IMG/VR virus record: IMGVR_UViG_3300020048_000027
Coordinates: 1 to 64,000 of that record
Reading direction: 5' to 3' (one strand)
Source: a virus
Length of the DNA: 64,000 bases
Positions 9,053-32,832 of the stretch are shown here, one piece after another (positions within the stretch are counted from its first letter, which is position 1; each line of letters opens with the position of its first letter). The position numbers were made by a program, and so were the translations under genes. The notes under the pieces were generated by a model, which did not search any database, was not told where the DNA came from, and saw only the letters and a program-made list of their open reading frames with translations.

Positions 9053-10621
9053 TTACACTGTTTGTAGATCTGATACGAAAATACGACCGTAAAATTCTGG
9101 TCTTAACATTTTCTTCGCATATCTCGTCATAATCCCTTTGCGAGGGGTAAAAGTTTCTGGGTCATATACCAAAGGAGTCATCATTAATGGCACGTAAGGG
9201 GCATAAACAGCTCCTGTTTCCAAGAATTGTGATCCTCTGTATCCCATTAAGATACTATTTTCAGTCATGTAAGGATTTTTGTATACCTTATAACGTCCGT
9301 TCAATTGTCCTACTTTTTGTACACCAAAAGCAAAGTCCATTTTATCACCGTCTGTGTTAGCAGCATATCCAGGAATTGATTCAAGGATTGTAGCTACTGT
9401 TGGAGAACATACTAAGAAGTTAGCTCCACCACGTAAAGTTTTTTGGTGAATTTTGTTAGATACTTTTTGGATTTTAGTTCCTAAAGTTTGGAACCATTGT
9501 CCTTGTGTATTAAAGAAGTCTGAAGTAGCGGTTGACCATTTAGTACCGTTCCAGAATTTATTGTTAACTGCTGACCATTTTTCAGTTGTAGCAGCATCTT
9601 GAATTAACATATCCAAAATCTCTAAATCAATCTCCATAGAGATGTACTCAGATAATAGTGAAGTTAATTCTGCTTCTGCATCAATTGATTGGTAAGCGTT
9701 TAAATCTTGAGCAAACTCTGGAGTCCACTGAGCTTTCAACTTTCTAGTTTTAGCTATAATAGATTCAGATGCTAATTCAACGTTAATTTCTGGAATTACG
9801 ATTGATCCTCCTGGATTATCTTCAAAGTCTCCTCTTGAGTTATCTTTTGGCTGTAAGTGGTAAAGTACTGAACCGCTTAATACAGTTCCTACTATTCCAG
9901 TTTTTTTAACTACAAAAGTAACTACGTTTCCAGATACTGTTGTTAAGTCTGGGTTAGATGTTACGTCAGTAGATCCTGATAAGATTCTAAAAGCTCTTAC
10001 ACCTTCTGCATCAAATCCTGTGTTTATTAAATCTTTTTCAAATCTTAAGTATGCAGAAGGAAGAGTTCCGTCTTGATACGCAATAGAAGCAGATGTTGCA
10101 GCTGTACCTGATGCAGCAATAGATGCTGTAACTTCATTAATAGAGTATCCAAATTGACCTGCTCCATATAATCCTCCTGATACTTCTTCATCAACAGACA
10201 TTTTATTTGCAGCTGTAGATACATTACCATACATGTTTTCTGATGCTGTACGTCCGTTTACTCCTGTTCCGTATTTAAAGTCTAAGTAAAATACAAGACC
10301 TGAAGGTAAGCTCATCGGCTGAACAGATACAAAATCTTTTGCTGAAATTTGAGCGAATACTTTACGTACTAATGGTAAAGCAACTCCTGCCCACTGTTCA
10401 CCAGCTCCTGCTGAGAAGCTAGCTCCTGTTCCTGTGTTTGATTGTTCTGATACAATCTGTTTTGCTTGATTCTCAAGAATCATAGCCATGTTATTTCTGT
10501 CTACATCTTTAGTAATGTTTTCTAGTAGTCCAGATTTTTCCCATTTCGAGGCTAAACGAACAGCATCAGCTTGTAAGCTTTTGTAGTTGTTTGCACTTTC
10601 TAATAATTGATTTACTTCCAT
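9053..10621 (-). CDS. gp23: major capsid protein (T4 gp23-like)
   Basis: ILENQ, VQPMSLPSGLVFYL, AKTRKLKAQWTPEFAQDL, YAPYVPL, DPETFTPRKGIMTRY. Confidence 0.97.
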   Translation of the reverse strand: MEVNQLLESANNYKSLQADAVRLASKWEKSGLLENITKDVDRNNMAMILENQAKQIVSEQSNTGTGASFSAGAGEQWAGVALPLVRKVFAQISAKDFVSVQPMSLPSGLVFYLDFKYGTGVNGRTASENMYGNVSTAANKMSVDEEVSGGLYGAGQFGYSINEVTASIAASGTAATSASIAYQDGTLPSAYLRFEKDLINTGFDAEGVRAFRILSGSTDVTSNPDLTTVSGNVVTFVVKKTGIVGTVLSGSVLYHLQPKDNSRGDFEDNPGGSIVIPEINVELASESIIAKTRKLKAQWTPEFAQDLNAYQSIDAEAELTSLLSEYISMEIDLEILDMLIQDAATTEKWSAVNNKFWNGTKWSTATSDFFNTQGQWFQTLGTKIQKVSNKIHQKTLRGGANFLVCSPTVATILESIPGYAANTDGDKMDFAFGVQKVGQLNGRYKVYKNPYMTENSILMGYRGSQFLETGAVYAPYVPLMMTPLVYDPETFTPRKGIMTRYAKKMLRPEFYGRIFVSDLQTV

Positions 10622-10645: not shown

Positions 10646-11707
10646 TTATTTTATAATTCCTGCTAATTTTTGCATTCTAAGTACAGCTGCAGATTCCGCT
10701 ATAATTTCCGGTCTTTTTGCAGTTACTCCTGTTGCTTTGGATGCTCCTCCTAGTAATCCTTCTTTTACTAACCTTTTTCCTGTACTTTCTTCGGATTTGT
10801 ATTTTAATCCGCTTTTAGATACTGTCTCAAATACTAGCTTAACTTCTTTCACTGTTTCCGCTTTGTCAAAAGCAGTGATTATGTTCACTTTTTGTGATTC
10901 GCTTAGTTGATTTGCTTTAAAGATCCTATTTACGTAAAGTAACTTCGCATTAAGTAAGTTTGTTTTTTTAGACTCTTCTGTAAGAGTTCTAATAGTTTTA
11001 AGTGCTTCAGCTAATTCCTTAGATGTTTTACTTTCTTCCATACGTCTTACGCTTGCATTATCTGCAGCTAAATCTTGCATGAATTTCAAGGCTTTTGCAT
11101 GAGCTGCTTTACCTTTTTTAGCTATTAAACTAGCTAATCTAATTAAATCATTGTCGTCTGTAAGATCACCTACTCCGTACCCTGGTCTGTCTTCCTCTAT
11201 TGGATCTTTTCCCATTTCTGATAGTTCAGAAAGAAGTTCGTCTAAGTCAATTTCTTCTTCGTCCTCAGCTCCGATCATATCGTCTGCTGGTAACTCATCT
11301 CCCATTTCTTCTTCTTCTTCTTCCGGTGCTTCTTCTTGTGTAATTAGATCTTTAATAAGGTTTTTTAAATCCCCCATAGTCATAGACTCAAAATCGATAG
11401 GTTCATCTTCTAATTCCTCCTCAGATTGTTCTGAGTCTTCGGAACCTTCTTCTCCCTCTAAATTTTCTAAATCTTCTTCTTCGATAGTTATTGATTTTGG
11501 TGGGTTTGGTAATTGGTTTTTGTCTTGACTACCCATTGTATAATCAACATCTTCTTCTTCTTCCATTTCTTGAAGTTTTGCAGCTAGCATGTTTTTCAAG
11601 TGTGGTGTTAAAGTTTCCTCTAGTGCTGTTTTTGCATTTGCAATTGCAGCTTCACGGATTGACTTAGCTTCGGCAATAGCTTGCTTGAATAAATCTTTGT
11701 TTGTCAT
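10646..11707 (-). CDS. prohead scaffold/core protein (gp22-like)
   Basis: Acidic coiled-coil protein directly upstream of the capsid gene; many L/I-x-E sites. Confidence 0.75.
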   Translation of the reverse strand: MTNKDLFKQAIAEAKSIREAAIANAKTALEETLTPHLKNMLAAKLQEMEEEEDVDYTMGSQDKNQLPNPPKSITIEEEDLENLEGEEGSEDSEQSEEELEDEPIDFESMTMGDLKNLIKDLITQEEAPEEEEEEMGDELPADDMIGAEDEEEIDLDELLSELSEMGKDPIEEDRPGYGVGDLTDDNDLIRLASLIAKKGKAAHAKALKFMQDLAADNASVRRMEESKTSKELAEALKTIRTLTEESKKTNLLNAKLLYVNRIFKANQLSESQKVNIITAFDKAETVKEVKLVFETVSKSGLKYKSEESTGKRLVKEGLLGGASKATGVTAKRPEIIAESAAVLRMQKLAGIIK

Positions 11708-11728
11708 TTAATTAATTTTTTTTGGTTC

Positions 11729-11809
11729 TCTACGATTATTTGAATCGTAATTGGAAAGTTTAATTTGCGTAAATACTGTATAAGTAACAGTATATTTTTA
11801 TTATAAATA
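11729..11809 (-). promoter_or_regulatory. late promoter (11802-11809) plus two 5'-UTR hairpins of the scaffold/capsid operon
   Basis: TATTTATA, then TACTGT..ACAGTA and TACGATT-caaat-AATCGTA stems. Confidence 0.55.
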
Positions 11810-11821
11810 CACTACTTTTAT

Positions 11822-11862
11822 AAAAACAAAGAAACCCCTACATTTCTGTAGAGGAGTCTTTC
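11822..11862 (-). terminator. intrinsic terminator
   Basis: CCTCTACA-GAAA-TGTAGGGG then TTTCTTTGTTTTT. Confidence 0.7.
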
Positions 11863-11908
11863 TCTGCCTTCGGTAGCGTCCGAGGAATTATCTTTACTCT
11901 CTGTCGTC
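11822..11908 (-). ncRNA. candidate late small RNA (about 85 nt)
   Basis: Own TATTTATA (11909-11916), GC-rich hairpin CCTCGG-acgcta-CCGA(A)GG, own terminator, no ORF. Confidence 0.4.
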
Positions 11909-11966
11909 TATAAATATTCCTATTGATTCTAGTTCATTAGGATTGTGACTACTTATTAACCGTTTT

Positions 11967-12740
11967 TTAATCTAATGAATAATTTGCTAATGAATATAGT
12001 GTCATTACATATCCTGTTGCCACATTTTTTACAGTTGCCGATTTATTATCCGATGATAGTACTATATAAGTCTTTCCACTCCTAAATTTATTGGATAACT
12101 TACTACCTGGTCTTATATCATCAAAGTTGATTTTCTGCCGGAAACCGGGTGCTTCGTTCAATGGGTTCTCTAGTTCCTCAAGTGAATCTTCTACTTTTAA
12201 TATTTCCTGGGGTTTAAATTGAGATAAAAATTCTCTTGGAGAAGTTTCCATTGAACCATCTTTACCAGAAATATCATTACCATTTATTGTAAAAAACAAC
12301 CCTTTTTTACCTTTATACTCATCATCCCAATTCATATCTATAGCGAAATAATCACCATCTGGGAGGTCTAAAACTCTAAAAGAATTTTCTTCAATTTCTT
12401 CATCATCTAACCTTTCCTCTAAATTAACCGTACCTTCTATTTCTTCCAAGAATCTTTGTATTCTTCGGTCCGATTCCATGTCTTTATTAAGAATTGTAAC
12501 AGCATTTGGAAAATCATCTCCTCTTCCAAAATGCCACTCATAGTCTACATCTTCTTCATAATTTTTAAAACCGTATCTCTGTTGTAAGGTTTCTTCAAAC
12601 TCTTCCATATTCATACCGAAACTATTTGCCATATCATCGCTAATAGTGTAAGTAGTCGTTTTCTCCTCTTTTATAAGTTTAGAAACCCTAGTAAGCTTAT
12701 TTTCTGTTAAAAAATTTCTTAAGTTAAAAGTACTGTTCAT
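11967..12740 (-). CDS. putative internal head (cargo) protein with FxLxxFLxENK leader
   Basis: MNSTFNLRNFLTENKLTRVSKLIKEE; segments separated by LEE/IEE/LNE sites. Confidence 0.65.
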   Translation of the reverse strand: MNSTFNLRNFLTENKLTRVSKLIKEEKTTTYTISDDMANSFGMNMEEFEETLQQRYGFKNYEEDVDYEWHFGRGDDFPNAVTILNKDMESDRRIQRFLEEIEGTVNLEERLDDEEIEENSFRVLDLPDGDYFAIDMNWDDEYKGKKGLFFTINGNDISGKDGSMETSPREFLSQFKPQEILKVEDSLEELENPLNEAPGFRQKINFDDIRPGSKLSNKFRSGKTYIVLSSDNKSATVKNVATGYVMTLYSLANYSLD

Positions 12741-12758
12741 TTTTATAATTGTTTACTG

Positions 12759-13337
12759 TTATACTCTTAATATATCGTTAATAATGTTGTGGACTTTTCC
12801 GTACTTACTTTCTTCTTGCTTTCCTTCATTTAGTGATATAGCAGTCATAAAAGCTCCTTGTGTTGAAGGATTTGATACAAAATCCCATGCACTTAGTTCA
12901 AAGTCATCTTGAACTTCTAAAGTTCCTTCATTTGTCTGTTGAACTGATCCGGTTCCTCTTGAGGAGATTCCGATTGTATGTCCTGCTTTGACTATCTCTT
13001 TAACAATATTTCCAGAAGGGGTGTTAAGTAGCTCAATTACACCTCTTAGCTCATCTCCTTCCCACCATAATTTTTTTATTACGTGAGATGCATTCTTAAG
13101 AGAGACTATTATCGAGTCTGGGTGATCTAGTTCTCCGTAGGCATTCCCTACTTTTACAAAATTCTGTTCGTAAAGTTTAACTTCTCTTTCCAATATTTCT
13201 TTTGCGTAAACTCTACCATTCTGGTTTTTAGCTCCAGCTCTTTGTAATATTCCCTCTACTTCAAAGACTCCAGGTTTTTCTCTGGATTCTCTGAGTAAGG
13301 ATCTGAAAGGTGTTACCTCTACTAATAGTTCTTTCAT
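12759..13337 (-). CDS. gp21: prohead protease (T4 gp21-like)
   Basis: NQNGRVY, GELDHP, SHVI, GISSRGTGS, DFVSNPS motifs. Confidence 0.95.
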   Translation of the reverse strand: MKELLVEVTPFRSLLRESREKPGVFEVEGILQRAGAKNQNGRVYAKEILEREVKLYEQNFVKVGNAYGELDHPDSIIVSLKNASHVIKKLWWEGDELRGVIELLNTPSGNIVKEIVKAGHTIGISSRGTGSVQQTNEGTLEVQDDFELSAWDFVSNPSTQGAFMTAISLNEGKQEESKYGKVHNIINDILRV

Positions 13338-13339
13338 GT

Positions 13340-13570
13340 TTAGTTTCCTGTTCGGTTTTTAATTCCAGTGTATGCACTGTACAAATGTTCAGAAATACTT
13401 AACGCATCCATATTTGTAAGTACAGGAGCTGCTCTTTTAAAATACTTCGCTAAATCCAGTAAGAAAGCTTCCATTTCATCTGCGCTAAACTCAGTAACGT
13501 CCGACATTGTTTCTTTAGCTCCCTCGAAAAGATTTTGTCTTCTCCACCTGTGTATATTAAAATCTTCCAT
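13340..13570 (-). CDS. hypothetical head-region protein
   Basis: MEDFNIHRWRRQNLFEG leader resembling the DNF(N/D)L family. Confidence 0.6.
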   Translation of the reverse strand: MEDFNIHRWRRQNLFEGAKETMSDVTEFSADEMEAFLLDLAKYFKRAAPVLTNMDALSISEHLYSAYTGIKNRTGN

Positions 13571-15451
13571 TTACTTTTTTTTATTTGTATATTTGGTACT
13601 TTTTGTTTTTCCTTCATTCATTGAAAAAGATGTTCCAGCAGTTTCACTTGGATCAAACCCTAGTTTTTCTAATTCCTCAGGTGATATTCTTTTACTCTTA
13701 GGCAGTTCAATTGTCATATACTTATCTAGTACAGGTTTTAGATCATTTTTAAAAGCTTTGGATACTGCTGGAGCCATAAAAGATCCTATTGTTGTGTACA
13801 CTCCTTCAATTCCTTCTCTTGCTTCTAAATAAGTCTTCTCTATCTTTGCAATATAGTCCGCTAGGGAAGTTGCTCCTTTTCTAATACGTGATGCAAGATC
13901 TTCATTTGCATCATTCTCGTAATTTATAAATCTTTCTAAGTTCTCTGCTTTAGCTTCCTTAAGCATTTTCTTATCCTCTGTAAGTATGTTTGTAATTAGT
14001 TTCTTAAAGGTTTCTTTTAATTGCTCTTCTTTACTTCCCTCGTTTAATCCCTGTTCTTTATTTTTCTTTGCTGCGTATGCTTGTGCATCTTTTTTTTCAG
14101 CAAATCCTTTCACTCTAATTTCTCCTTCCCATACTGCCCAAGGTTCCTTTTTATTTTTACAAGGGCGTACTATATACTTATCGTTCGTATTACCTGAGTG
14201 ACTTTCATTTACTCCTTCCCAGTCTTGGCTTCTCAGTACTTGCATTAAAGCGAAGACAGCATCTTGTGTTGAATAATTATACCTACTAGCTAATCCCCCT
14301 ATAAATCTATTTACAAGTTTAGTTACTTCTGGATTAATATTTTCATTTAATTTAGATTCATTTTCTTCTTCATAATCTAGAAAATCAGTACTAGTTTCAC
14401 CTTTATCTACTCTAGGTTCGTAGTCTCTTCCAGGTTCATATCTTCCGTCACTAAAACCTTCTTCTACGTCTACTTCTAAAAGCTCTCCTGAGAGGTAGTT
14501 GATTAGATCTTTCTTAGCGTGGGGTACCATGCCAGGTTCTGTCATTTCACCATTCTTCCATTCATCCCAGACTACTAATAAATGTTTAATAGCCTTGTTC
14601 AATCTCGGTCCCATTGACTCTACATACCCTCCTGTGTCGTAATCATTCTCTGTTACAACTTTTCCGCCTTTCATTTTAGCTCTTCTACCTTCTTCTAAAG
14701 TTAATTGATCTACTTGCAATGCACCTTCTTCACCATCAAGGTAATCATATGCTCCTTGTAGTTTATCCTTAGCACTACTTATTTTAGCCTGCCACCAATC
14801 TGGGAAGTCTACCTCAGAGGACATTTTATCGTACTTATCTAACTTCTTATATAACATTACTGCTAATTTAGCAGCTCTATATGCTTTCTTTTTCAACATA
14901 GCCGGTTCATTATCTTGATGTCCTACATCTAAATCTCCTACACTGTAGTCGCTTTCGTTAACCGTCTCAGTGTTTTTCTTTTTAACTACTGCTTCCTTTT
15001 TTAGATCTGCTTTCTTTAAGCCGTTGAAAGTATCTACTGTATTTTTTGATGTTGCTGCTGTAAGTTTATCGTGCTTATCTACTTTTTTAGATTCTCCTGC
15101 AATATCGTTAATATAAAAATTAGGATCTTTCTTAAGATTTTTTAATGCTTTGTCTTTAGCTTTGTTAAAGTCTTCTTGTGAAATAGTCTCTTGTGACATT
15201 AGTCCAGCTTTCTCTAATTCGATATCTATTCCTTGCTCCATTGCACCCATTGAAAACTTATCTATGTTTGCTTCTGGTTCTGATACCTTCTCTGATAACA
15301 TACCTTTACCTCTAAGTATTGATACTGTATCATCATACCCGTTAAATTGAGTAATTAAATTAGGAAGCCCTAATCTGGCATCTCTTACAAATTGTGATTT
15401 TGAGAATGCTCCTTCTTGTATGGCGTTATATTTTTCCTGTAATGTTTTCAT
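13571..15451 (-). CDS. multi-module internal head protein (putative polyprotein)
   Basis: MKTLQEKYNAIQE start resembles T4 capsid-targeting leaders; DUF5661-like GIDIELE...KNLKKDPNFY; about 10 (L/V/M)-x-E sites between modules. Confidence 0.6.
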   Translation of the reverse strand: MKTLQEKYNAIQEGAFSKSQFVRDARLGLPNLITQFNGYDDTVSILRGKGMLSEKVSEPEANIDKFSMGAMEQGIDIELEKAGLMSQETISQEDFNKAKDKALKNLKKDPNFYINDIAGESKKVDKHDKLTAATSKNTVDTFNGLKKADLKKEAVVKKKNTETVNESDYSVGDLDVGHQDNEPAMLKKKAYRAAKLAVMLYKKLDKYDKMSSEVDFPDWWQAKISSAKDKLQGAYDYLDGEEGALQVDQLTLEEGRRAKMKGGKVVTENDYDTGGYVESMGPRLNKAIKHLLVVWDEWKNGEMTEPGMVPHAKKDLINYLSGELLEVDVEEGFSDGRYEPGRDYEPRVDKGETSTDFLDYEEENESKLNENINPEVTKLVNRFIGGLASRYNYSTQDAVFALMQVLRSQDWEGVNESHSGNTNDKYIVRPCKNKKEPWAVWEGEIRVKGFAEKKDAQAYAAKKNKEQGLNEGSKEEQLKETFKKLITNILTEDKKMLKEAKAENLERFINYENDANEDLASRIRKGATSLADYIAKIEKTYLEAREGIEGVYTTIGSFMAPAVSKAFKNDLKPVLDKYMTIELPKSKRISPEELEKLGFDPSETAGTSFSMNEGKTKSTKYTNKKK

Positions 15452-15456
15452 TTAAC

Positions 15457-15654
15457 TTATTTTACTGTTTTATATCCTAATTTCTTTAAATTTTCTGTAG
15501 CTCTATTAGTTTTTTTCTTACTAAAAGCTTTCGGTGTTGCATACTGTGCTCCTTGACCGGCTGTAAAACTTGCACCGCCGACATTAGTTGCGCTCATTTC
15601 ATTTAACTCCTGTAATACTTCCTTTATAATGCTTTTTAATTCACCTATCTTCAT
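15457..15654 (-). CDS. small head-region protein
   Basis: MKIGELKSIIKEVLQELNE leader then MSAT...YATPKAF. Confidence 0.65.
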   Translation of the reverse strand: MKIGELKSIIKEVLQELNEMSATNVGGASFTAGQGAQYATPKAFSKKKTNRATENLKKLGYKTVK

Positions 15655-16505
15655 ACTGCTCTCAGTTCTTTTACCAGTTCGTAATACTGTAGGATATCTA
15701 CAAGGTGTTCATCAGTTACTCTTTGAGTTTTGCTTACGTTAGGTATTCCCTTAAGTACTTCCTCTAACTTAATCTTAATAATAGTATCTTGTACGGTTTC
15801 TTTAAGTTCCGTAATTGTTACTTTTAATTTTTTAAATTCTTCATTAACTACTGTTCGCAGTCTTGTAGAAGAATCTACTGATGTTATAAATTCCCTAAGT
15901 GTGTTTTTCTGCTCTGGCAGTAAGTCGTTATACTTGCTATTAAACTTCTCTAATAGGATTTTAAAGGCTAGTAACTTTAGATCTTTATCGTATTTCGAAT
16001 ACTCCTCAATTAACGTATCTTTTACTTTGTCTTTATCCTGAGTAGTTGCTGTAAGGTGTTCTAAGACTGTTGTCTTATTTAGTATAAGAAAGTTTGGATC
16101 AACTACATCTACTGCTCTATGTGCTTCTAATAAGCAATATAACGCTGCTAGGGGTTTATATGTTTCAACTTTTATAGAGAAAAAATCCTCTATATTATAG
16201 TTTTTACTTATTTGCTCAATTAATCTATATTTTTGAGACTTTAATAGTTGGCTATCTATGTTTCGTGATACCTCTATTATTGTTGATACGATTGCTTCAG
16301 CTTTAATTTGAGAAACTCTTCTATTCTTAGATACAAGTTCATAAAGTCCAAATTCTCTAACGAGGGCTGTTCTACCTGTAAAGTGTTCTTTAATTATAGC
16401 TACTGCAGGAGATTCTTTCTTATTCAGTACATCTGAAGCTATTTGCTTTACTAGTAGTTCAAATATTAATCCTGTATTTTTATACTTCGAGTGTCGAATC
16501 TTCAT
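15651..16505 (-). CDS. helical head-assembly (prohead core-like) protein
   Basis: Directly downstream of the portal gene; all-alpha character; function inferred from position only. Confidence 0.55.
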   Translation of the reverse strand: MKIRHSKYKNTGLIFELLVKQIASDVLNKKESPAVAIIKEHFTGRTALVREFGLYELVSKNRRVSQIKAEAIVSTIIEVSRNIDSQLLKSQKYRLIEQISKNYNIEDFFSIKVETYKPLAALYCLLEAHRAVDVVDPNFLILNKTTVLEHLTATTQDKDKVKDTLIEEYSKYDKDLKLLAFKILLEKFNSKYNDLLPEQKNTLREFITSVDSSTRLRTVVNEEFKKLKVTITELKETVQDTIIKIKLEEVLKGIPNVSKTQRVTDEHLVDILQYYELVKELRAV

Positions 16506-16559
16506 TGGTTTTATATTATTTTACGGCAGGTGTCAGATACCCTTTCAAATAAATAGTAT

Positions 16560-18497
16560 TTAATTATCTAAATCCTTTATTTGATTTTCATTTAATAGTA
16601 TCTCAATTTCTTCTTCTTTTTTCTCGAAGATGTTCTGTTTATTGTTGGGTACTCCTATTTGAGCAAGTTGATGCATTGCTTGAGATGCTGTGCTTGGCTT
16701 TCCTTTATCACTACCTTCTTGCACATTCTCATTATCGCTTGGATATCCCCCTTTCATACCTTCTTTGCCAAGTGGGTCTCTTCCTCCAACTCCTGAGTTT
16801 GTACCATATCTTGACATATGTTCTTTTGGTCTTCCTCCCTCAGGTCCCGGTTTCCCGTGTTTTGAAGCTGTTAAAGGAGATGGATGATCTTCATAGCCGG
16901 CTGGTACTTCTCCGAAGTCAGGTCCTTTTTCTCCGTTTCCTTGTCTCCTTCCGTAAAGTGTTGCTAAATCGTGAGGTGTTCCATAAGATTTTCCTGATTT
17001 AGAAGGGTCATTTCCTTCGTTCTCTATTTGGGCTAATCTAAAGAGTCTTTTTGCATCTTCAGCAACTAGGTCTCTCATCTCCATATATTTATCTTCTGAT
17101 AGGTTAAAGATGGTATCATAGATATAATCTGTAGAGAATAGCTTAGAGTCCTTCATCTGGTTTGCTAGGTCTATCTTCTCTTTTAGTAATGCGATTTTTT
17201 CTTGTTCAAATATGATAGAAGGAGTTGTTAACTTGATGTCAAAATTTGTTAACGATTCTCCTCTAAATCCCTGTGCGTATAAGTGTACTAGTCCTATCTT
17301 GGTTAGTTCTGATTCTAGGATCCTTTGAACTCTTTCTACAGTTCTTGCAAATCTAATATCTTCTGCTGCTAAAGTTGCCTTACCCGATAGTTCTCCTTCA
17401 AATCCTAAATATGCTTTAGGTATTCTAAGTGCTGCAAATACCTTGGACCTTAGGTACTCAATATCGTTTGTACCGTCATACTCTAATCCTTTAGTTGTTT
17501 CTATTCTAGTTGAAGTATCCCCTCCTCTTACTGGAAGATAGAAGTCCTCCATCATATTCATCATGTTGAACCTTAAGTTATAGTCTCCTGTTTGGGGATC
17601 CATATAAGGTGTTTTTTTCATTGTATTCACAGTCTTTAACATAAACTGCTCAACTTCGGTTGGCGGAATAGACCCTACATTTACATAAAATATTCTCTTT
17701 TCCGGAGCTCTCATAATACGTGAGATAAGCATCGCATCCTCCATTAAGGTAAGTTGCTTATATACTTTTCTTGCAGGTTCTAGATAAGATCTTCCGTATG
17801 GTAAATAATTCGTTGCTGACAGTAATCTGAAGTGAGCTATCTCGTAATTGTCAAACTCTAGGATTCTTTCATTTTTAGTTGCAACATAGTTCCTATCCTG
17901 TGCTGATGCTAATCCATCTGGGTTTAATTCAAAGGTTACTTTCCCTTGTTTTTCCGGATCTTCACCTTCATGTCTCGACATATGGTAAACTGTATAGGGA
18001 AGTACATTGTAGACTCCAAACTCTTCTGCTATCTCTAACTTTAAGAAAAAATCTCCATACTTTACCATTTCACGAGTCCATCCCCAAAGGTTAAACTCTA
18101 TGTTAAGTACATCGTAGTATAGATTATAAAGTATTCTCTGTAAGTTTTCGTCTGAAGATTTTATTGATAGTACTTCTCCTTGATCACTCTTTAGGGTAGC
18201 TTCATCAGCAATAATATCTAATGCAGAAGCTATTATACCATCTGAATCCATTGACTCATAATCTACATAAAGCTGTGATCTTAAAGCTTGGTAGTTTACG
18301 TTTGGATTAAATATATTCTTATTGTTGTATACGTAGAGTCTTGAAAACCTGTCTACAAGTGAATTGGTCTGATATTTACCTGTATTCTGTATATGGTTAA
18401 TATCTGCTACTTTAACTTGATCTCCTCCTACATTCCTAATTATGATATCGGATGAGAATAGTCTGCTAAGTTTTTTAAATAATAAAGTATCTGCCAT
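16560..18497 (-). CDS. gp20: portal protein (T4 gp20-like)
   Basis: LMEDAMLISRIMRAPEKRIFYVNVG, MMEDFYLPVRGG, DIEYLRSKVFAALRIPK, EDIRFARTV. Confidence 0.95.
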   Translation of the reverse strand: MADTLLFKKLSRLFSSDIIIRNVGGDQVKVADINHIQNTGKYQTNSLVDRFSRLYVYNNKNIFNPNVNYQALRSQLYVDYESMDSDGIIASALDIIADEATLKSDQGEVLSIKSSDENLQRILYNLYYDVLNIEFNLWGWTREMVKYGDFFLKLEIAEEFGVYNVLPYTVYHMSRHEGEDPEKQGKVTFELNPDGLASAQDRNYVATKNERILEFDNYEIAHFRLLSATNYLPYGRSYLEPARKVYKQLTLMEDAMLISRIMRAPEKRIFYVNVGSIPPTEVEQFMLKTVNTMKKTPYMDPQTGDYNLRFNMMNMMEDFYLPVRGGDTSTRIETTKGLEYDGTNDIEYLRSKVFAALRIPKAYLGFEGELSGKATLAAEDIRFARTVERVQRILESELTKIGLVHLYAQGFRGESLTNFDIKLTTPSIIFEQEKIALLKEKIDLANQMKDSKLFSTDYIYDTIFNLSEDKYMEMRDLVAEDAKRLFRLAQIENEGNDPSKSGKSYGTPHDLATLYGRRQGNGEKGPDFGEVPAGYEDHPSPLTASKHGKPGPEGGRPKEHMSRYGTNSGVGGRDPLGKEGMKGGYPSDNENVQEGSDKGKPSTASQAMHQLAQIGVPNNKQNIFEKKEEEIEILLNENQIKDLDN

Positions 18498-18512
18498 GTA
18501 TGCTTATTTGTA

Positions 18513-18520
18513 TATAAATA
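18513..18520 (-). promoter_or_regulatory. putative late promoter TATTTATA
   Basis: 16 nt upstream of the portal ATG. Confidence 0.65.
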
Positions 18521-18525
18521 TTATC

Positions 18526-20103
18526 CTATTCTAAAAGCCAGGATATATCCTCCTTTCCGTACGGGGTATTTACAATATACGGACTATTTTGCGAGTTAGC
18601 AACTGAAGAAATTACTGCTGAGTTTCTTGCATTCATATTTGTGAAAGATGATAATGACGCTCTTGCTAGGTCTAACCCCTGTTGTCTCAGTCTTAATGCG
18701 GTATCCCTTACATACAGTGCTGTTGCAAGTGACATTACTAAATCATCGTTGTATCCTATCTGAGCTTGAGGTTTTCCGTTCTTCCATACAAATACTCTCA
18801 TTTCTCCTAGTGTACGTTTTGACTGGACTGTTACTCCTCTATCTCTAACATACTCCATCATCTTTGCAATAACAAGAGGACGTGTTCGGGTAGACATGGT
18901 AAAGCCTGGTACTAATTGATCTCTTTCGTACTTAGTCATATAGGATTCTACAGTATCCATTTGGTTTCTAGGACTGTAGTATAAGTTTTTATATTCTCTT
19001 TCTAGTATCTGTTCAATGGTGGACCACCCTATATTTGCGTTTTCTACTACAAGTAGTGCATCATTATATTCTGATGCTATGCCTACTAGTACGTTTCCGA
19101 ATTCTTTCGGTGATAGTTTACCTTTGTATTCTCCTACTTGTCTACAGGCCTCTATATCGAAGATGTGAAATGCTGAATAATCGGCGGAATCCCCTCTTGA
19201 AACGTCTGCTACGACTATATACGATTTTGCATAATCTACTCCCTCCCATATCCATAAATTACCGTCAACTCCTCTCTTTTCTGCTGGGTCTTTTAAATAT
19301 GTACTTTCGTAAAACATAAGATCATCCGGCTCAAATACTGTATCTCCTGAAGCTAAGAAGTCACAATCACACTCCTGCCCTGCCATTCTTGGTCCTAAAT
19401 CAGCATCCTGCCTATCTCTCCAAACTTGATCTCTCTCAGGGTGAACACTCCAGGGTAATCTTATAGGTACGAATGAATTCTCCCCTGATTCAGCTCTTTC
19501 CCAAGTCTGATGGAACCAGTTACCTATTCCGTTTGGGGTTGATAAAGCCATGCACTGTCCTCCGGTAGCAAGTGTTTGCTGTGCTGCTGCAAATGTTTCG
19601 TCAATATTCTCTATAAATGCTGCTTCATCTATTAAGAGTAAAGATACAGCTTCAGACCGTGCAGCATCTGCGTTTGAAGATTTTGCCTGTATTTTTGATC
19701 CGTTTGTAAGTCTTAAAGATAATTTGTTTTTTTCAACTGCAGGTAGTTTTAACCACTTAGGAAGCTCGTCATACATAAAAGTAGTCTTAGTTACTAGGTT
19801 ACGGGCTGTAGCTTGTGTAGTTGCTAATGCTAGTATATTTTTATCTTTATGAAATAACATTAACCATAAAGAGTATCCAGCAGCTAGGGTAGATATCCCT
19901 AATTGTCTCGATTTAAGCGTTATGATATACTGCTCATCTCTGAATAGATGAAGTATTTTCTCTTGAAATAGGTAAAGTGAGAAGAGTATTCTACCTCGTT
20001 TAGGGTGTTGTATATAGCAATACTTCTTCATAAAGTATGCGGGATCTTTTGCACATCTAATATACTCTTGTGCTATTATCTTCTTTATATCGCTATTCTG
20101 CAT
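18526..20103 (-). CDS. gp17: terminase large subunit (T4 gp17-like)
   Basis: KSRQLGIST Walker A, LLIDEAAF Walker B, STPNG, ADVSRGDSADYSAF, NDDLVMSLA. Confidence 0.97.
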   Translation of the reverse strand: MQNSDIKKIIAQEYIRCAKDPAYFMKKYCYIQHPKRGRILFSLYLFQEKILHLFRDEQYIITLKSRQLGISTLAAGYSLWLMLFHKDKNILALATTQATARNLVTKTTFMYDELPKWLKLPAVEKNKLSLRLTNGSKIQAKSSNADAARSEAVSLLLIDEAAFIENIDETFAAAQQTLATGGQCMALSTPNGIGNWFHQTWERAESGENSFVPIRLPWSVHPERDQVWRDRQDADLGPRMAGQECDCDFLASGDTVFEPDDLMFYESTYLKDPAEKRGVDGNLWIWEGVDYAKSYIVVADVSRGDSADYSAFHIFDIEACRQVGEYKGKLSPKEFGNVLVGIASEYNDALLVVENANIGWSTIEQILEREYKNLYYSPRNQMDTVESYMTKYERDQLVPGFTMSTRTRPLVIAKMMEYVRDRGVTVQSKRTLGEMRVFVWKNGKPQAQIGYNDDLVMSLATALYVRDTALRLRQQGLDLARASLSSFTNMNARNSAVISSVANSQNSPYIVNTPYGKEDISWLLE

Positions 20104-20121
20104 AACTACTTGTAGGTTTTG

Positions 20122-20129
20122 TATAAATA
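20122..20129 (-). promoter_or_regulatory. putative late promoter TATTTATA
   Basis: 19 nt upstream of the terminase ATG. Confidence 0.65.
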
Positions 20130-20138
20130 GCGTATATT

Positions 20139-20166
20139 AGAAAACCCACCGTTTTAGAGTGGGTTT
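20139..20166 (-). terminator. intrinsic terminator
   Basis: AAACCCAC-loop-GTGGGTTTT after the cargo-gene cluster. Confidence 0.6.
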
Positions 20167-20237
20167 GATAGTCTATACTTACTTAAAATCTTTTATTTTC
20201 TCTAGTAGTTAAGCTAACACCTGTTAACGGCCTCTGC

Positions 20238-20711
20238 TTAGTACAATGATTCAGCAGCCAATTCTCCTAACTCTCCTGTGTCGCGGTATTCGTCTGTTAG
20301 TTGGTCTAACTCGTTGTCATTTAAAGGAGTTCCGTCTGTAAATTCTGCATACGTAATAAATGCATCTACGAAGTCTGGATAGTCCTTTGAATCTACTCCG
20401 TCAATTTCAATAGAGCTATGTTCTACTTTAGATGAAAGTTCCTCTGTAGGCTCACTGGTTTGCAAAGGCCCTATTAGCATACTAATTTTATAGTCTCTTC
20501 CCGGTTCCTTTTCTGCTAACCTTGCAGCAAGAACTCGTTCAACATCTTGTTTATCTTCTGCATCTATCTGATATCCGTACTGTATCCCTGGTTTATCTGT
20601 AAATGATACTCCCACTCTGTAATGTCCCATTTCTTGTTCCTTAAGAAGTCTTGCATTTTTTGTAAGTTTATTCTCCGATAGGAATTGTCTTAAATTAAAG
20701 TTATCTGCCAT
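20238..20711 (-). CDS. putative internal head (cargo) protein; start revised to MADNF at 20711
   Basis: Leader MADNFNLRQFLSENKLTKNARLLKE with TATTTATA at 20730-20737; C-terminal IDGVDSKDYPDFVDAFI module. Confidence 0.7.
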   Translation of the reverse strand: MADNFNLRQFLSENKLTKNARLLKEQEMGHYRVGVSFTDKPGIQYGYQIDAEDKQDVERVLAARLAEKEPGRDYKISMLIGPLQTSEPTEELSSKVEHSSIEIDGVDSKDYPDFVDAFITYAEFTDGTPLNDNELDQLTDEYRDTGELGELAAESLY

Positions 20712-20742
20712 TTGTATTTTATTTTTATTTATAAATAGTTTA
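20682..20742. repeat. late promoter + leader cassette, copy 1
   Basis: About 61 nt nearly identical to 21471-21531 (promoter, UTR and first 10 codons). Confidence 0.85.
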
Positions 20743-20745
20743 TTC

Positions 20746-21024
20746 TTAATACCAGTCTCCATTTCTTTCGATATCTTCAAAGTAATCATCAATACTGTCA
20801 TACTGATCTTTTACTGCATTCCATTCTTCGTAGTGAGCTTGTATTCCTGCTTCCTCTTCTTCTGGACTTAGTTCATCTGCTTGAGGATTTGTGCTAAAAT
20901 ACCAGTTTTCAATTACATCCTTATCACCCCCATTAAAGTCTTGATCTACATATTCTTTTAATAATCTTGAGTTAGCAGTTATTTTATTCTCTACTAAAAA
21001 TTTTTTTAAATCAAAATTGCTCAT
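20746..21024 (-). CDS. putative internal head (cargo) protein
   Basis: MSNFDLKKFLVENKITANSRLLKE leader, acidic cargo. Confidence 0.7.
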   Translation of the reverse strand: MSNFDLKKFLVENKITANSRLLKEYVDQDFNGGDKDVIENWYFSTNPQADELSPEEEEAGIQAHYEEWNAVKDQYDSIDDYFEDIERNGDWY

Positions 21025-21089
21025 TTTACCTTCCTTTACTGGTTGTTTCTTATCTTGTTTTTTAGTAAATTTTTTCTCACACTCTTTTA

Positions 21090-21500
21090 TTATTGAACTA
21101 TTGAGTAGTCTTCTGCTTCAAAAAATACAACTGCTAGTTTATAATTTTTATCTCTAGGCATCTCGTCTGCTAAGACTGTATTATTATCGTATTCATAAAA
21201 TACAGGGAAATCATCTCCTTCCTGATACTCTTCCATAAAATCCTGCTTCAACTCTTCAAGTTCTTTTGCAAGTCTTATAGGATCCTGCTGATAAGGTCTA
21301 CCCTGTTCGCTGTGAATGACAGTAACCGGTTTAGTCATATCCACTCCTGCTTTCTTAAAGGCTTCTTCTACTGGGTATTTTGCGTCTTCAATACCTTTTA
21401 TAGGTGATGAAGAAGGAGTAAATTCTTCTTTTAATAATCTTGAATTAGTAGTTATTTTATTCTCTACTAAGAATTGTCTTAAATCAAAGTTATCTGCCAT
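21090..21500 (-). CDS. putative internal head (cargo) protein
   Basis: MADNFDLRQFLVENKITTNSRLLKE leader; TATTTATA at 21519-21526. Confidence 0.7.
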   Translation of the reverse strand: MADNFDLRQFLVENKITTNSRLLKEEFTPSSSPIKGIEDAKYPVEEAFKKAGVDMTKPVTVIHSEQGRPYQQDPIRLAKELEELKQDFMEEYQEGDDFPVFYEYDNNTVLADEMPRDKNYKLAVVFFEAEDYSIVQ

Positions 21501-21531
21501 TTGTATTTTATTTTTATTTATAAATAGTTTA
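21471..21531. repeat. late promoter + leader cassette, copy 2
   Basis: Near-identical to 20682-20742. Confidence 0.85.
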
Positions 21532-21534
21532 CTC

Positions 21535-22560
21535 TTATCTAAAAGATTTTAGTTGAGGATTTGTGCCTACACTATACTTTACTTCGCCTGATTCTACTGC
21601 GTCAAGTATGTCTGTCGCTGGTAAGTATGTTCTATAATCTCCTGTCTCGTGGTTGAATAATATATATCTTACTATTCTTTTCTTTTTGATATAACTATCG
21701 ATCGCAGCTTTCACCATAACTTTCACAGGGTTCTCATCTCCATTTGTAACAAATACTGTACTGCTTGGATACGTACTCTCTATAAAGCTATTCATGTTTT
21801 CTATAACATCTTGAAGGTTGCCTTTTTGCTTACCTAATGCTATATCGCTTTTTAAGCTTTTTGACCAGGTTCCTTTCGCCTCTTCATTATAAGGTGAATA
21901 CTTCACATTTGCTCTATCTCCGGAAAGTCTAGACGTGTTAGCTTTTAACTCTGCTGGTGCTCCGTTAATAATAAAATCACCAGCTGATGTTGTATTTAGT
22001 TTTACGTTACTGAAGATTAAGGGGAAAAGAATCTCTCCTTTTCCTATATTTACACTATCCTTAGCTCCTGTTAGATTTGCAAGATCTCTAATCTTCCCTT
22101 GTGGAAGTCCTTTAAGTCCATCTTTTACATTTCCCCTTGTTTTTAATGTGCTCTCACTTATAGCTTTAAGAAATGTAGGTATATCATTGGTAGTCCCTCT
22201 TATTAAGATAGAAATTACCTCTGCCGGTAAGTTACGGTTTGAAAACGTATCCTTGTTAATTCCTGCGTTAGACAGTACCTGTTTTATTTGATCTATTCCA
22301 GCGGATGCGGATAACGTTCTGTAGACTCTTTGTAGTAGTTTATTATTATCTTTGTTTTTTGCTAGAAGGTCTGTTATAGTATCTACTGTTATCTCTTCCT
22401 GCTCTTCATTTTCCTGTAATATCATACCACTTTCTACACCTAGTTCACTGTAAATCTCCTTAAGTATTTCTAAGTCCTCAACGTTCTTCATGTCTGGGTA
22501 TCCTTTTTTACATCTAAAAGCCCATTCCTCAACTATTTTGTCAACTACCTTAATTTTCAA
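21535..22560 (-). CDS. PD-(D/E)xK restriction-endonuclease-like protein with N-terminal leader
   Basis: IGKGEILF...GDFIING..AELKA catalytic pattern; leader EWAFRCKKGYPD...ILQE; TTG start uncertain. Confidence 0.6.
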   Translation of the reverse strand: MKIKVVDKIVEEWAFRCKKGYPDMKNVEDLEILKEIYSELGVESGMILQENEEQEEITVDTITDLLAKNKDNNKLLQRVYRTLSASAGIDQIKQVLSNAGINKDTFSNRNLPAEVISILIRGTTNDIPTFLKAISESTLKTRGNVKDGLKGLPQGKIRDLANLTGAKDSVNIGKGEILFPLIFSNVKLNTTSAGDFIINGAPAELKANTSRLSGDRANVKYSPYNEEAKGTWSKSLKSDIALGKQKGNLQDVIENMNSFIESTYPSSTVFVTNGDENPVKVMVKAAIDSYIKKKRIVRYILFNHETGDYRTYLPATDILDAVESGEVKYSVGTNPQLKSFR

Positions 22561-31945: not shown

Positions 31946-32377
31946 CTATACGTCTGTCATTTTTAAATGTCCAGTCTTAGGGTCTACCATAAAGTTATCT
32001 GGTCTAATATCCAGCTCTTCCGGGTCTATTCCTAAGTTGCTAGCCTCCTTTTCTAAGTTATCTAAGAACTCTTCTGGCATCTCCGATTTGTTTTTTCCCA
32101 TAATCGGCATTGTAATTATGCCCAGTTTTTCAGATAACCTTTCTACATCGTAAATGTATACGAAGTTATTTGTTTTTTTACCTTTCAGTATTTCTGCATG
32201 ATCTAGTTCTATAGGATCTGTTGTTACTTTATAAGCTTTCCCGTTTAATAAGTATACTGATCCGTAATCTCCTGAACCTATATATTTTGCACCTTCATCT
32301 TCCAACTTATCTACCTCTCGATTAAATTTAGCATCGTATTCGAGCGGCCCTTCTAATATAATCCTAGAGAGTTTCAT
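31946..32377 (-). CDS. minimal protein-kinase-like (PKL) enzyme with capsid-targeting-like leader
   Basis: YIGSGDYGSVY Gly loop, AYKVT, DIRPDNF catalytic loop, LKMTD; MKLSRIILEG leader. Confidence 0.75.
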   Translation of the reverse strand: MKLSRIILEGPLEYDAKFNREVDKLEDEGAKYIGSGDYGSVYLLNGKAYKVTTDPIELDHAEILKGKKTNNFVYIYDVERLSEKLGIITMPIMGKNKSEMPEEFLDNLEKEASNLGIDPEELDIRPDNFMVDPKTGHLKMTDV

Positions 32378-32832
32378 TAGCTAACGTCCATTGAATCATC
32401 ATAACTTGCTTCTATTTCGAGAGCTTGTAATTGCTCTACAATATTATCCAATATAGTACTATCGTATCTTCGCGGTATCTTCACCCCTTCAACACCTAAG
32501 TAATCTAGTAGATCGTTTGCCTCTTCTATACCTAGCTTATCTCTTTGTTCTCCTCTAAATAAATAAGTAGTATAGTACCGTCCTGATCCTGCTATATATG
32601 TTATATCAATTTTACTTATATTGTCCACAAGTCCCTCTGATAGATCGTTTGACATTGTTAAGTCCAAAAATGCAGATGCTACTGCATATTTAAGTCTTTC
32701 GTAATTTAATTCTGGAAATGTCTTAAATATTTCGTCTGCTACAACTTTCACTCTTTTTGAGGCCTTCTCATTAGACTGTTCAACTCTACTGGTTACCTCG
32801 TCTGCCTCTATTAGTATTCTAGATAGTTTCAT
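32377..32832 (-). CDS. hypothetical protein with capsid-targeting-like leader
   Basis: MKLSRILIEA; internal LSEG site; TATTTATA at 32858-32865. Confidence 0.7.
   Translation of the reverse strand: MKLSRILIEADEVTSRVEQSNEKASKRVKVVADEIFKTFPELNYERLKYAVASAFLDLTMSNDLSEGLVDNISKIDITYIAGSGRYYTTYLFRGEQRDKLGIEEANDLLDYLGVEGVKIPRRYDSTILDNIVEQLQALEIEASYDDSMDVS

What the first reader, a model, noticed from the sequence alone, without database searches (positions are those of the whole stretch)
11967..21531. Late-promoter + capsid-targeting-leader cassette copied onto unrelated cargo proteins
Seen: four unrelated ORFs (11967..12740, 20238..20711, 20746..21024, 21090..21500) begin with the same ~25-aa leader, M(ADN/SN/NST)F(N/D)L(R/K)xFLxENK(L/I)TxxxxL(L/I)KE, and diverge completely after the final E. 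13340..13570 has a weaker version. At DNA level, 20682-20742 and 21471-21531 are nearly identical over about 61 nt covering TATTTATA, the UTR and the first codons; 20955-20997 matches 21427-21470. Established: T4 internal proteins carry an N-terminal capsid-targeting sequence removed by gp21 after (L/I)-x-E and are injected with the DNA. Inference: this phage has a portable expression-plus-packaging cassette that recombination can place in front of new domains, turning them into virion-delivered proteins that act before any phage transcription.
Basis: partly seen in the sequence, partly recalled or inferred. Interest (0 to 1): 0.85.

Follow-up and report, generated by a model that had tools for sequence, protein, structure and literature searches.

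The report
Shared head-loading tag on phage proteins
A T4-like phage of Flavobacterium-type bacteria puts the same 25-residue tag, ending in the cutting motif of its own head protease, on four unrelated small proteins; this is most likely a lineage-specific version of phage T4's known signal for loading proteins into the virus head, but neither packaging nor cutting has been measured.

Summary
Four minus-strand ORFs in the head-gene block start with one 24-25-aa leader and are unrelated after its last Glu. These are the only strong copies in the 153.6-kb genome. The phage encodes a gp21-type (S77) prohead protease and a gp23-type capsid protein. The leader holds two L-x-E motifs (E13, E25), which fit gp21's cutting rule, and conservation collapses right after E25. 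The tag occurs on 1,615 protein clusters (50% identity) in public data. Among 50,697 deposited phage records, only the Flavobacterium phage immuto carries it. It sits at N-termini, but also inside and at the C-terminal end of proteins, where an L-x-E site usually precedes it. A promoter-like TATTTATA plus MADNF-type leader heads at least 19 different first cargo modules in relatives. In this genome that cassette is duplicated (67 nt, 2 mismatches), and one leader is a chimera of two others. This matches T4's capsid-targeting sequence and variable internal proteins, so it is a new variant of a known kind. Packaging, cleavage and injection are untested. The cargos are acidic with no known fold. 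Only two of the four ORFs carry the promoter. This scan has reported analogous tags, with other sequences, in other T4-like phages.

The parts
21471..21537 (-). Promoter-like TATTTATA (21519-21526), short 5' UTR and first 10 codons of ORF D; duplicate of 20682-20748
   Evidence: 2 mismatches in 67 nt against the B copy; motif positions
21426..21500 (-). Leader D, 25 aa (MADNF type). Its 5' part matches B and its 3' part matches C, so it is chimeric
21090..21425 (-). Cargo D: folded alpha/beta domain of a widespread family, no known fold
   Evidence: AF2 gives cargo pLDDT about 90 and leader below 50; 23 family members in loci; best PDB match Z 4.2
20953..21024 (-). Leader C, 24 aa, with no promoter motif upstream
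20746..20952 (-). Cargo C, 67 aa plus stop, very acidic (pI 4.05 for its last 65 aa), rare family
20682..20748 (-). Second copy of the promoter-like motif (20730-20737), UTR and first 10 codons (ORF B)
20637..20711 (-). Leader B, 25 aa (MADNF type)
20238..20636 (-). Cargo B: two small modules. The second (SIEIDG..DYPDF..DGTPL) is the conserved core of the largest cargo family
20141..20166 (-). Hairpin followed by a T run, lying after ORF B and before the TATTTATA of the terminase gene (20122-20129)
   Evidence: Read directly.
12666..12740 (-). Leader A, 25 aa, the most diverged copy. It starts 18 nt after the protease stop codon, with no promoter motif
11967..12665 (-). Cargo A, about 230 aa, acidic, a singleton. 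Residues 60-100 match phrog_23411 and pieces of large head-region proteins in relatives
12759..13337 (-). Prohead protease, T4 gp21 type (Peptidase_S77): the presumed enzyme that cuts the leader
   Evidence: Pfam E 8e-31, phrog_207 E 1e-52
13340..13570 (-). 76-aa protein with a doubtful, diverged leader-like start (MEDFNI...NLFE)
   Evidence: profile score -1.5 bits; homologues in L002, L031, L035 and immuto
10646..11707 (-). Acidic scaffold-like protein, the presumed docking partner of the leader
   Evidence: position between protease and capsid gene; pI 4.49
9053..10621 (-). Major capsid protein, gp23 type. Its N-terminal region has a conserved I-V-[SA]-E followed by a variable stretch
   Evidence: Pfam E 9e-82; alignment of 21 relatives

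Best explanation
The 25-residue leader is a capsid (prohead-core) targeting propeptide of an immuto-like clade of far-T4 phages, working like the T4 capsid-targeting sequence. Inferred steps: while the prohead assembles, the leader docks its protein onto the scaffold core or the inner shell. The S77 prohead protease then cuts after L11-x-E13 and/or [LIV]23-x-E25, which frees the folded cargo inside the head and lets the peptide leave. The tag is modular. It works at N-termini, between modules of longer proteins and at C-termini, in most cases with an L-x-E site on its upstream side, so neighbouring tag-cargo units can fuse or split without loss of function. Because the tag, and in one subtype its promoter and 5' UTR, is conserved at the DNA level, it offers homology for recombination that reshuffles cargos. 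Shown here: the tag, its motifs, its distribution, the cargo diversity, the fusions and the mosaic DNA. Inferred: docking, cleavage, retention in the virion and delivery to the host.
For: T4-type protease and capsid genes flank the tagged ORFs in T4-like gene order. In the 145 N-terminal leaders read from the 150 best-scoring representative proteins (50% clusters), F5, L11, N14 and T17 are invariant, E13 is present in 144, and E25 in 135. 133 carry [LIV] at position 23. Position 26 onwards is variable. The tag matches T4 ipII/ipIII (MKTYQEFIAE) in the spacing hydrophobic(-6), F(-3), I/L(-2), E(0). In T4, residues 4 and 7 target and residues 8 and 10 direct processing (PMC9026906). Of 86 internal or C-terminal copies, 38 are preceded by [LIVM]-x-E-G, and in most of the other examples printed an L-x-E lies a few residues upstream, often followed by a relic Met. 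One ORF (L088) encodes tag-cargoD-tag-cargoB, which are separate genes in the window. AF2 models show a floppy leader (pLDDT below 50) on a folded cargo. 60 of 79 tag-anchored loci hold head-module genes within 6 kb. The capsid protein's N-terminal region carries conserved (L/I/V)-x-E sites. Neighbouring core-like proteins are enriched in [LIV]-x-E (18 against 7.8 expected; 4 against 0.9), while the four cargos are not.
Against: There is no experimental evidence of packaging or cleavage for any member. The tag has no detectable sequence homology to the T4 sequence beyond a short spacing pattern. The cargos are strongly acidic (pI 4.0-4.4), which is unlike the basic T-even internal proteins and more like scaffold proteins. 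L-x-E is a short, common motif. Nineteen of 79 tag-anchored loci show no head gene within 6 kb, and immuto has copies at 1.8 and 103.8 kb, far from its head block.
Confidence: 0.65

Rival explanations
1. The tagged proteins are accessory scaffold or core proteins, like T4 gp67/gp68, rather than cargo. The tag is their core-assembly interface, and after maturation they are degraded and expelled, so nothing is delivered to the host.
For: All four are very acidic, like the scaffold protein. They are encoded between the terminase, portal, protease and scaffold genes. T4 core proteins are also gp21 substrates (PMC5694885).
Against: Cargo D and cargo B are predicted to be compact folded domains, not coiled coils. 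The cargos are not enriched in [LIV]-x-E, unlike the conserved core-like p284 and p65. Extreme cargo diversity and presence/absence variation (42-78 clusters; many relatives have no tagged ORF in the fetched head-module region) fit dispensable passengers better than structural parts.
Confidence: 0.2
2. The tag is a recognition peptide for some other partner encoded nearby (a modifying enzyme, a chaperone or the conserved 341-aa protein upstream) and not for the prohead. A shared phage tag elsewhere in this scan turned out to track a radical-SAM enzyme.
For: The MADNF-type tagged ORF usually follows the conserved 341-aa gene of unknown function.
Against: Tagged ORFs also sit after the protease, before it, or far from the 341-aa gene. 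Many relatives keep the 341-aa gene with no tagged ORF next to it. Both conserved Glu residues sit in the S77 protease's motif, and conservation stops exactly at the second. The 341-aa protein has no Pfam, PHROG or NCBIfam match.
Confidence: 0.08
3. Ordinary paralogy: one ancestral gene duplicated, the N-terminus stayed conserved and the rest diverged beyond recognition.
For: C and D leaders are 92% identical in DNA, as after a recent duplication.
Against: Cargo lengths (65-230 aa in the window) and predicted folds differ. Cargo B and cargo D each have clear orthologues elsewhere that carry other leader subtypes and sit at other genome positions. The tag also occurs internally and at C-termini. 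D's leader is a mosaic of the B and C leaders.
Confidence: 0.05

Closest known systems
Phage T4 internal proteins IPI, IPII, IPIII and Alt: capsid-targeting sequence removed by gp21 (Mullaney and Black 1996, as reviewed in PMC9026906 and PMC3012670)
   Same: A short N-terminal propeptide is shared by otherwise unrelated proteins. It ends in (L/I)-x-E. The phage encodes an S77 prohead protease and a gp23-type capsid. The spacing of hydrophobic residues before the Glu matches, and neighbouring copies share the upstream DNA (ipII/ipIII).
   Different: 25 residues with two L-x-E motifs, against 10 (19 in IPI). No sequence homology. Also used internally and at C-termini. Cargos are acidic, not basic. 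Tagged genes lie mostly inside the head-gene block. Nothing has been tested experimentally.
Hypervariable internal-protein locus of T-even phages (Repoila et al. 1994, cited in PMC3012670; paper not held, not read here)
   Same: Cargo genes vary between related phages while the targeting sequence stays constant.
   Different: A different clade (uncultured Bacteroidota-type far-T4 phages), a much larger repertoire (1,615 clusters at 50% identity), and fusion/fission of tag-cargo units.
Propeptides of giant-phage head proteins (phiKZ, 201phi2-1, SPN3US; PMC5694885)
   Same: Head proteins are processed after Glu by a gp21-like protease. The paralogues gp53/gp54 share an identical 15-residue N-terminus. 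Propeptides hold multiple cleavage sites.
   Different: Those propeptides are mostly over 100 residues and the motif is A/S-x-E. Here one short tag recurs on dozens of unrelated cargos.
Encapsulin cargo-loading peptides (from my own knowledge)
   Same: A short, position-flexible terminal peptide addresses diverse cargo proteins to the inside of an HK97-fold shell.
   Different: Encapsulin peptides are not removed by a protease, and the shells are cellular compartments, not virions.
T4 promoter-early stem-loop (PeSL) mobile regulatory cassettes (Arbiol et al. 2010; from my own knowledge, not read here)
   Same: Conserved regulatory DNA flanking variable genes is proposed to mediate modular shuffling.
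   Different: Those are non-coding early-gene cassettes. Here the conserved DNA extends into the coding leader of head-module genes.

Membership tests
T4-type capsid-targeting-sequence / internal-protein system | Phage encodes a gp21-type (Peptidase S77) prohead protease | tested here: met
   window 12759-13337, PF03420 at E 8e-31 (curated cut-off passed), phrog_207 at E 1e-52
T4-type capsid-targeting-sequence / internal-protein system | gp23-type capsid protein and T4-like head-gene order (terminase, portal, core proteins, protease, scaffold, capsid) | tested here: met
   PF07068 at E 9e-82; gene order read; relatives
T4-type capsid-targeting-sequence / internal-protein system | Short N-terminal peptide shared by proteins that are otherwise unrelated | tested here: met
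T4-type capsid-targeting-sequence / internal-protein system | The peptide ends in the protease motif (L/I)-x-E | tested here: met
   L11-x-E13 in 144 of 145 copies; [LIV]23 in 133 and E25 in 135 of 145
T4-type capsid-targeting-sequence / internal-protein system | Sequence homology to the T4 targeting sequence | tested here: inconclusive
   T4 ipII/ipIII start MKTYQEFIAE. Only the spacing hydrophobic(-6), F(-3), I/L(-2), E(0) is shared, which is too short to score
T4-type capsid-targeting-sequence / internal-protein system | Small basic mature proteins that lie with the packaged DNA | tested here: not met
   cargo pI 4.05-4.37
T4-type capsid-targeting-sequence / internal-protein system | The peptide is necessary and sufficient for incorporation into proheads and is removed by the protease; the cargo is ejected with the DNA | not testable with these tools
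   needs virion proteomics and reporter fusions
T4-type late gene expression | Late promoter read by a gp55-type sigma factor | tested here: inconclusive
   TATTTATA is enriched about 6-fold upstream of coding-strand starts, but no T4 gp55 homologue was detected in the genome (low sensitivity). Timing is unknown
Encapsulin cargo-loading peptide | Peptide not removed; non-viral HK97-fold compartment | tested here: not met
   The context is a tailed-phage head module with terminase, portal and protease. This is an analogy only

The most novel reading that the evidence does not exclude
The tag is a position-independent address label bracketed by protease sites. It defines a pool of more than 1,600 protein clusters that immuto-like Bacteroidota phages load into their heads and inject with the DNA, many as acidic anti-defence proteins. 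The promoter-plus-tag DNA serves as the recombination handle that swaps these effectors between phages, and fusion or fission of tag-cargo units is neutral because the head protease separates them anyway.
Probability: 0.3. Interest if true: 0.75.

Novelty: new variant of a known kind. Interest (0 to 1): 0.55.

Why it matters
If the tag works as inferred, it gives a sequence handle for listing the virion-packaged proteins of a large, almost entirely uncultured group of marine and freshwater Bacteroidota phages. These are proteins that can act in the host before any phage gene is transcribed, so they are prime candidates for anti-defence functions. It would extend the T4 'targeting sequence plus head protease' principle to a distant lineage with a different, longer, two-part tag that also works inside and at the end of proteins. 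It would also provide a natural packaging tag for engineering phages of Flavobacteria. One cultured phage (immuto, host Flavobacterium sp. LMO8) carries four tagged proteins, so the idea can be tested directly.

Tried and rejected
Cargo function. Pfam, PHROGs and NCBIfam gave nothing for the four proteins, except a 40-residue match of cargo A to phrog_23411, which has no known function. Pfam on 142 tagged representatives gave only scattered hits: WYL_2 in two, TIM in one. Foldseek against the PDB found no match at E <= 0.001 for models of D and B. VIA-align over 48,161 chains gave a best Z of 4.2 for D, which is background level. The ESM Atlas gave a 0.77 hit for cargo A, below the useful range.

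Weak leader at 13340..13570. It is not recovered by the leader profile.

T4 gp55 late sigma factor. No match in the genome; the search is coarse, so this shows little.

Megablast of the region against GenBank phages. No match.

Sigma-70 and terminator scans. Counts are at shuffle level, and the scan does not list the hairpin after ORF B.

Depletion of [LIV]-x-E in cargos as a sign of protease resistance. The window cargos are at expectation, and pooled cargo units are slightly enriched (z 2.7). The test does not discriminate.

Repoila et al. 1994 could not be read because it is not held.
Full report
WHAT THE WINDOW IS. The window is the first 64 kb of a 153,571-bp virus record estimated 94% complete. 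Nearly all genes lie on the minus strand. The capsid protein is 73% identical to that of Flavobacterium phage vB_FspM_immuto and 54%, 49% and 43% identical to those of Microcystis phage Mel-JY01, an uncultured phage and Rhodothermus phage RM378; T-even and cyanophage hits are below 30%. It is therefore a distant T4-type myophage. Read 5' to 3' on the minus strand, the head block is:
- a conserved 341-aa protein (21535-22560)
- tagged ORFs D, C and B
- large terminase (18526-20103)
- portal (16560-18497)
- proteins of 284, 65, 626 and 76 aa
- prohead protease (12759-13337; Peptidase_S77 at E 8e-31)
- tagged ORF A
- an acidic scaffold-like protein (10646-11707)
- gp23-type capsid protein (9053-10621; E 9e-82).

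The four ORFs start with the same 24-25 residues. A profile built from them finds only these four in the whole genome. Beyond the last Glu of the leader the proteins have no BLAST similarity to one another.
- The B and D copies differ at 2 of 67 nt, from -37 to +30 around the ATG. This stretch includes TATTTATA and the whole 5' UTR.
- From codon 11 to codon 25, leader D differs from leader C at 2 of 45 nt, but from leader B at 15 of 45.
Leader D is therefore a mosaic with a breakpoint near codon 10. Over F5-E25 the C-D pair is 92% identical in DNA, a level reached by only 2% of pairs taken from different contigs. The 'weaker version' at 13340..13570 is not recovered by the profile.

THE PROMOTER-LIKE MOTIF. 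TATTTATA occurs 29 times in the window against 14.9 expected. Genome-wide, 21 of 40 coding-strand copies lie within 60 nt upstream of a start, most often 13-18 nt, where 8.4% of positions qualify. No plus-strand copy does. It precedes the terminase, portal, scaffold and tail-region genes. Only ORFs D and B of the four tagged ORFs have it. ORF A starts 18 nt after the protease stop codon, and ORF C follows D without the motif. Calling it 'late' rests on its position before structural genes. A T4 gp55 homologue was not detected, which is a weak negative.

ANATOMY OF THE TAG. I scanned IMG/VR twice, once with the portal protein and once with a leader alignment. The scans yielded 159 loci, and 369 stretches in the collection encode the leader. 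A profile search of 1.84 billion representative proteins found 1,615 clusters with E <= 0.001. In the 145 N-terminal leaders read from the best 150 representatives the pattern is F5-[DN]-L-[RK]-x-F10-L11-x-E13-N14-K15-L16-T17-x-N19-[SA]-[KRQ]-[LIV]-[LIV]23-x-E25:
- F5, L11, N14 and T17 are invariant.
- E13 is present in 144 copies and E25 in 135.
- From position 26 onwards no residue is preferred.
The tag thus contains two (L/I/V)-x-E motifs, which is the cleavage rule of T4 gp21, and conservation stops exactly at the second.

The first half resembles the T4 sequence in form. T4 ipII and ipIII begin MKTYQEFIAE (read from the T4 record). There, residues 4 and 7 carry targeting and residues 8 and 10 carry processing (PMC9026906). 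The tag has L7, F10, L11 and E13 at the same spacing.

Each half also occurs alone. A short N-terminal form (MSDFDLRKFLAE, then unrelated sequence) occurs in four loci. A C-terminal form ends ...LQEGFDLRKFLAENRK. Internal copies of the second half alone occur in a 626-aa-type protein of L050/L051 and in several representatives.

THE TAG IS NOT CONFINED TO N-TERMINI. Among 234 copies in the 150 best representatives, 148 are N-terminal, 60 internal and 26 within 12 residues of the C-terminus. Of the 86 non-N-terminal copies, 38 directly follow [LIVM]-x-E-G. Another 28 follow a Met, and in most of the examples printed an L-x-E lies a few residues further upstream (for example ...ALQE-TT-M-E-N-F...). 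That arrangement looks like the scar of two fused genes. L088 encodes tag-cargoD-tag-cargoB in one ORF, whereas the window has separate genes. L050 has a cargo-D-like domain fused behind the 626-aa-type protein through a second-half tag, while the related L052 has it as a separate tagged gene. Fusion and fission at tag boundaries, with a protease-type site on the upstream side, is what one expects if the protease separates the units anyway.

CARGOS VARY WHILE THE TAG STAYS. In the fetched loci, 117 distinct cargo units fall into 42 BLAST clusters (E 1e-4, single linkage). Families B (38 units) and D (23 units) are the largest, and A and C are singletons there. The 196 units of the 150 representatives, together with the four window cargos, form 78 clusters.

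Tagged ORFs sit at several positions: before or after the 341-aa gene, before the protease, after the protease, and upstream of the homologue of the window's 1083-aa ORF. Many relatives have none in the fetched head-module region. Complete or near-complete genomes carry 1 to 4. Family B lies upstream of the terminase in the window but after the protease in L005, L031, L045, L047 and L078.

Fifty tagged ORFs have TATTTATA within 45 nt upstream, mostly 17 nt from the ATG, and 38 of them begin MADNF. They are followed by 19 different BLAST clusters of first cargo module. In relatives, family D carries MKNNF/MENNF-type leaders without the motif. In the window it carries the MADNF cassette.

THE CARGOS THEMSELVES. 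AF2 models built on alignments of 14 sequences give a compact alpha/beta domain for D (cargo pLDDT about 90) and two small domains for B. In both, the leader is a low-confidence extension with one short helix at about residues 7-14. No library or fold search assigns a function. All four cargos are acidic, with pI 4.05-4.37.

INDEPENDENT HINTS ABOUT THE PROTEASE'S SUBSTRATES. The capsid protein's first 59 residues are highly conserved. They hold L-L-E, I-L-E and I-V-[SA]-E, the last immediately followed by a variable stretch, as at a propeptide boundary. The 284-aa and 65-aa proteins after the portal gene are enriched in [LIV]-x-E (18 against 7.8 expected, with no shuffle reaching 18; and 4 against 0.9, P = 0.004). 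This resembles T4 core proteins, which are cut to fragments. The four cargos are at expectation.

INTERPRETATION. The best reading (0.65) is a lineage-specific capsid-targeting propeptide cut by the S77 protease. What becomes of the cargo is open. Retention and injection, as for the T4 internal proteins, is plausible. The acidity also fits accessory scaffold proteins that are expelled (0.2). A tag for some other partner is unlikely (0.08), given the protease motifs and the variable neighbours, but an earlier case in this scan (e1-127136) shows that this can happen. Ordinary paralogy (0.05) is contradicted by the mosaic leaders, the mobile cargos and the internal and C-terminal copies.

NOVELTY. 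The principle is established for T4. The internal proteins of T-even phages are described as highly diverse, with only the targeting sequence conserved (PMC3012670). The targeting sequence has been called a possible evolutionary mechanism for packaging various proteins (PMC9026906). Giant phages have long propeptides with shared N-termini (PMC5694885). I found no description of this tag. Among 50,697 deposited phage records, only the four immuto records carry it, and the papers that mention immuto deal with other topics, judging from their titles and abstracts. This scan has reported analogous tag-plus-polyprotein systems, with other sequences, in other T4-like phages. New here are the two-part 25-residue tag, its use at internal and C-terminal positions, its scale, and the clear mosaic of promoter-plus-tag DNA within one genome. 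I rate it a new variant of a known kind, with interest 0.55.

Noticed in passing
window 15651-16505 and 15457-15654 (minus strand): The 284-aa and 65-aa proteins just after the portal gene are strongly enriched in [LIV]-x-E (18 against 7.8 expected; 4 against 0.9). By position they may be the counterparts of the T4 core proteins gp67/gp68, which the protease fragments.
   Followed up: partly
window 13571-15451 (minus strand): The 626-aa protein starts MKTLQEKYNAIQE, which is close to the T4 ipII/ipIII start MKTYQEFIAE. It may carry a second, T4-like targeting peptide. Its middle part also shares a module (GGYVE.MGP...W.EWKNG) with the 76-aa protein that follows the protease in immuto.
   Followed up: partly
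window 11708-11966: A 260-nt gap between ORF A and the scaffold gene holds two coding-strand TATTTATA motifs (11802-11809, 11909-11916) and a terminator-like hairpin (11854-11835), with no ORF.
   Followed up: no
L001 6736-7737 (immuto MW353175.1 117631-118632): The 333-aa tagged protein of immuto is annotated as cob(I)alamin adenosyltransferase (PduO). Its start is the leader, and its C-terminal tail (KLRKEFEKKFAAKKEKKEDK) matches that of cargo family B members in metagenome loci, so the annotation looks doubtful.
   Followed up: no
L078 and L158: The large terminase gene is split into pieces of 282 and 386 aa, with an extra ORF of 109 or 244 aa between them. This suggests an intron, intein or homing-endonuclease insertion.
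   Followed up: no
representative proteins (alignment A5): One tagged protein has a triosephosphate isomerase match (PF00121, E 8e-15) and two have WYL_2 domains. These are the only recognisable cargo domains among 142 proteins scanned.
   Followed up: no
window 10646-10700 and L001 14731-15972: The scaffold-like proteins of the window and of immuto end in the same ...QKLAGIIK tail. This may be the capsid-binding end of the scaffold.
   Followed up: no
window 31946-32832: According to other first-reader notes, adjacent proteins here share a different short start (MKLSRI[IL][LI]E) that also ends in I/L-x-E. In relatives, tagged ORFs of the present kind sit in the corresponding region, upstream of the 1083-aa protein's homologue (L093, L111, L146).
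   Followed up: no
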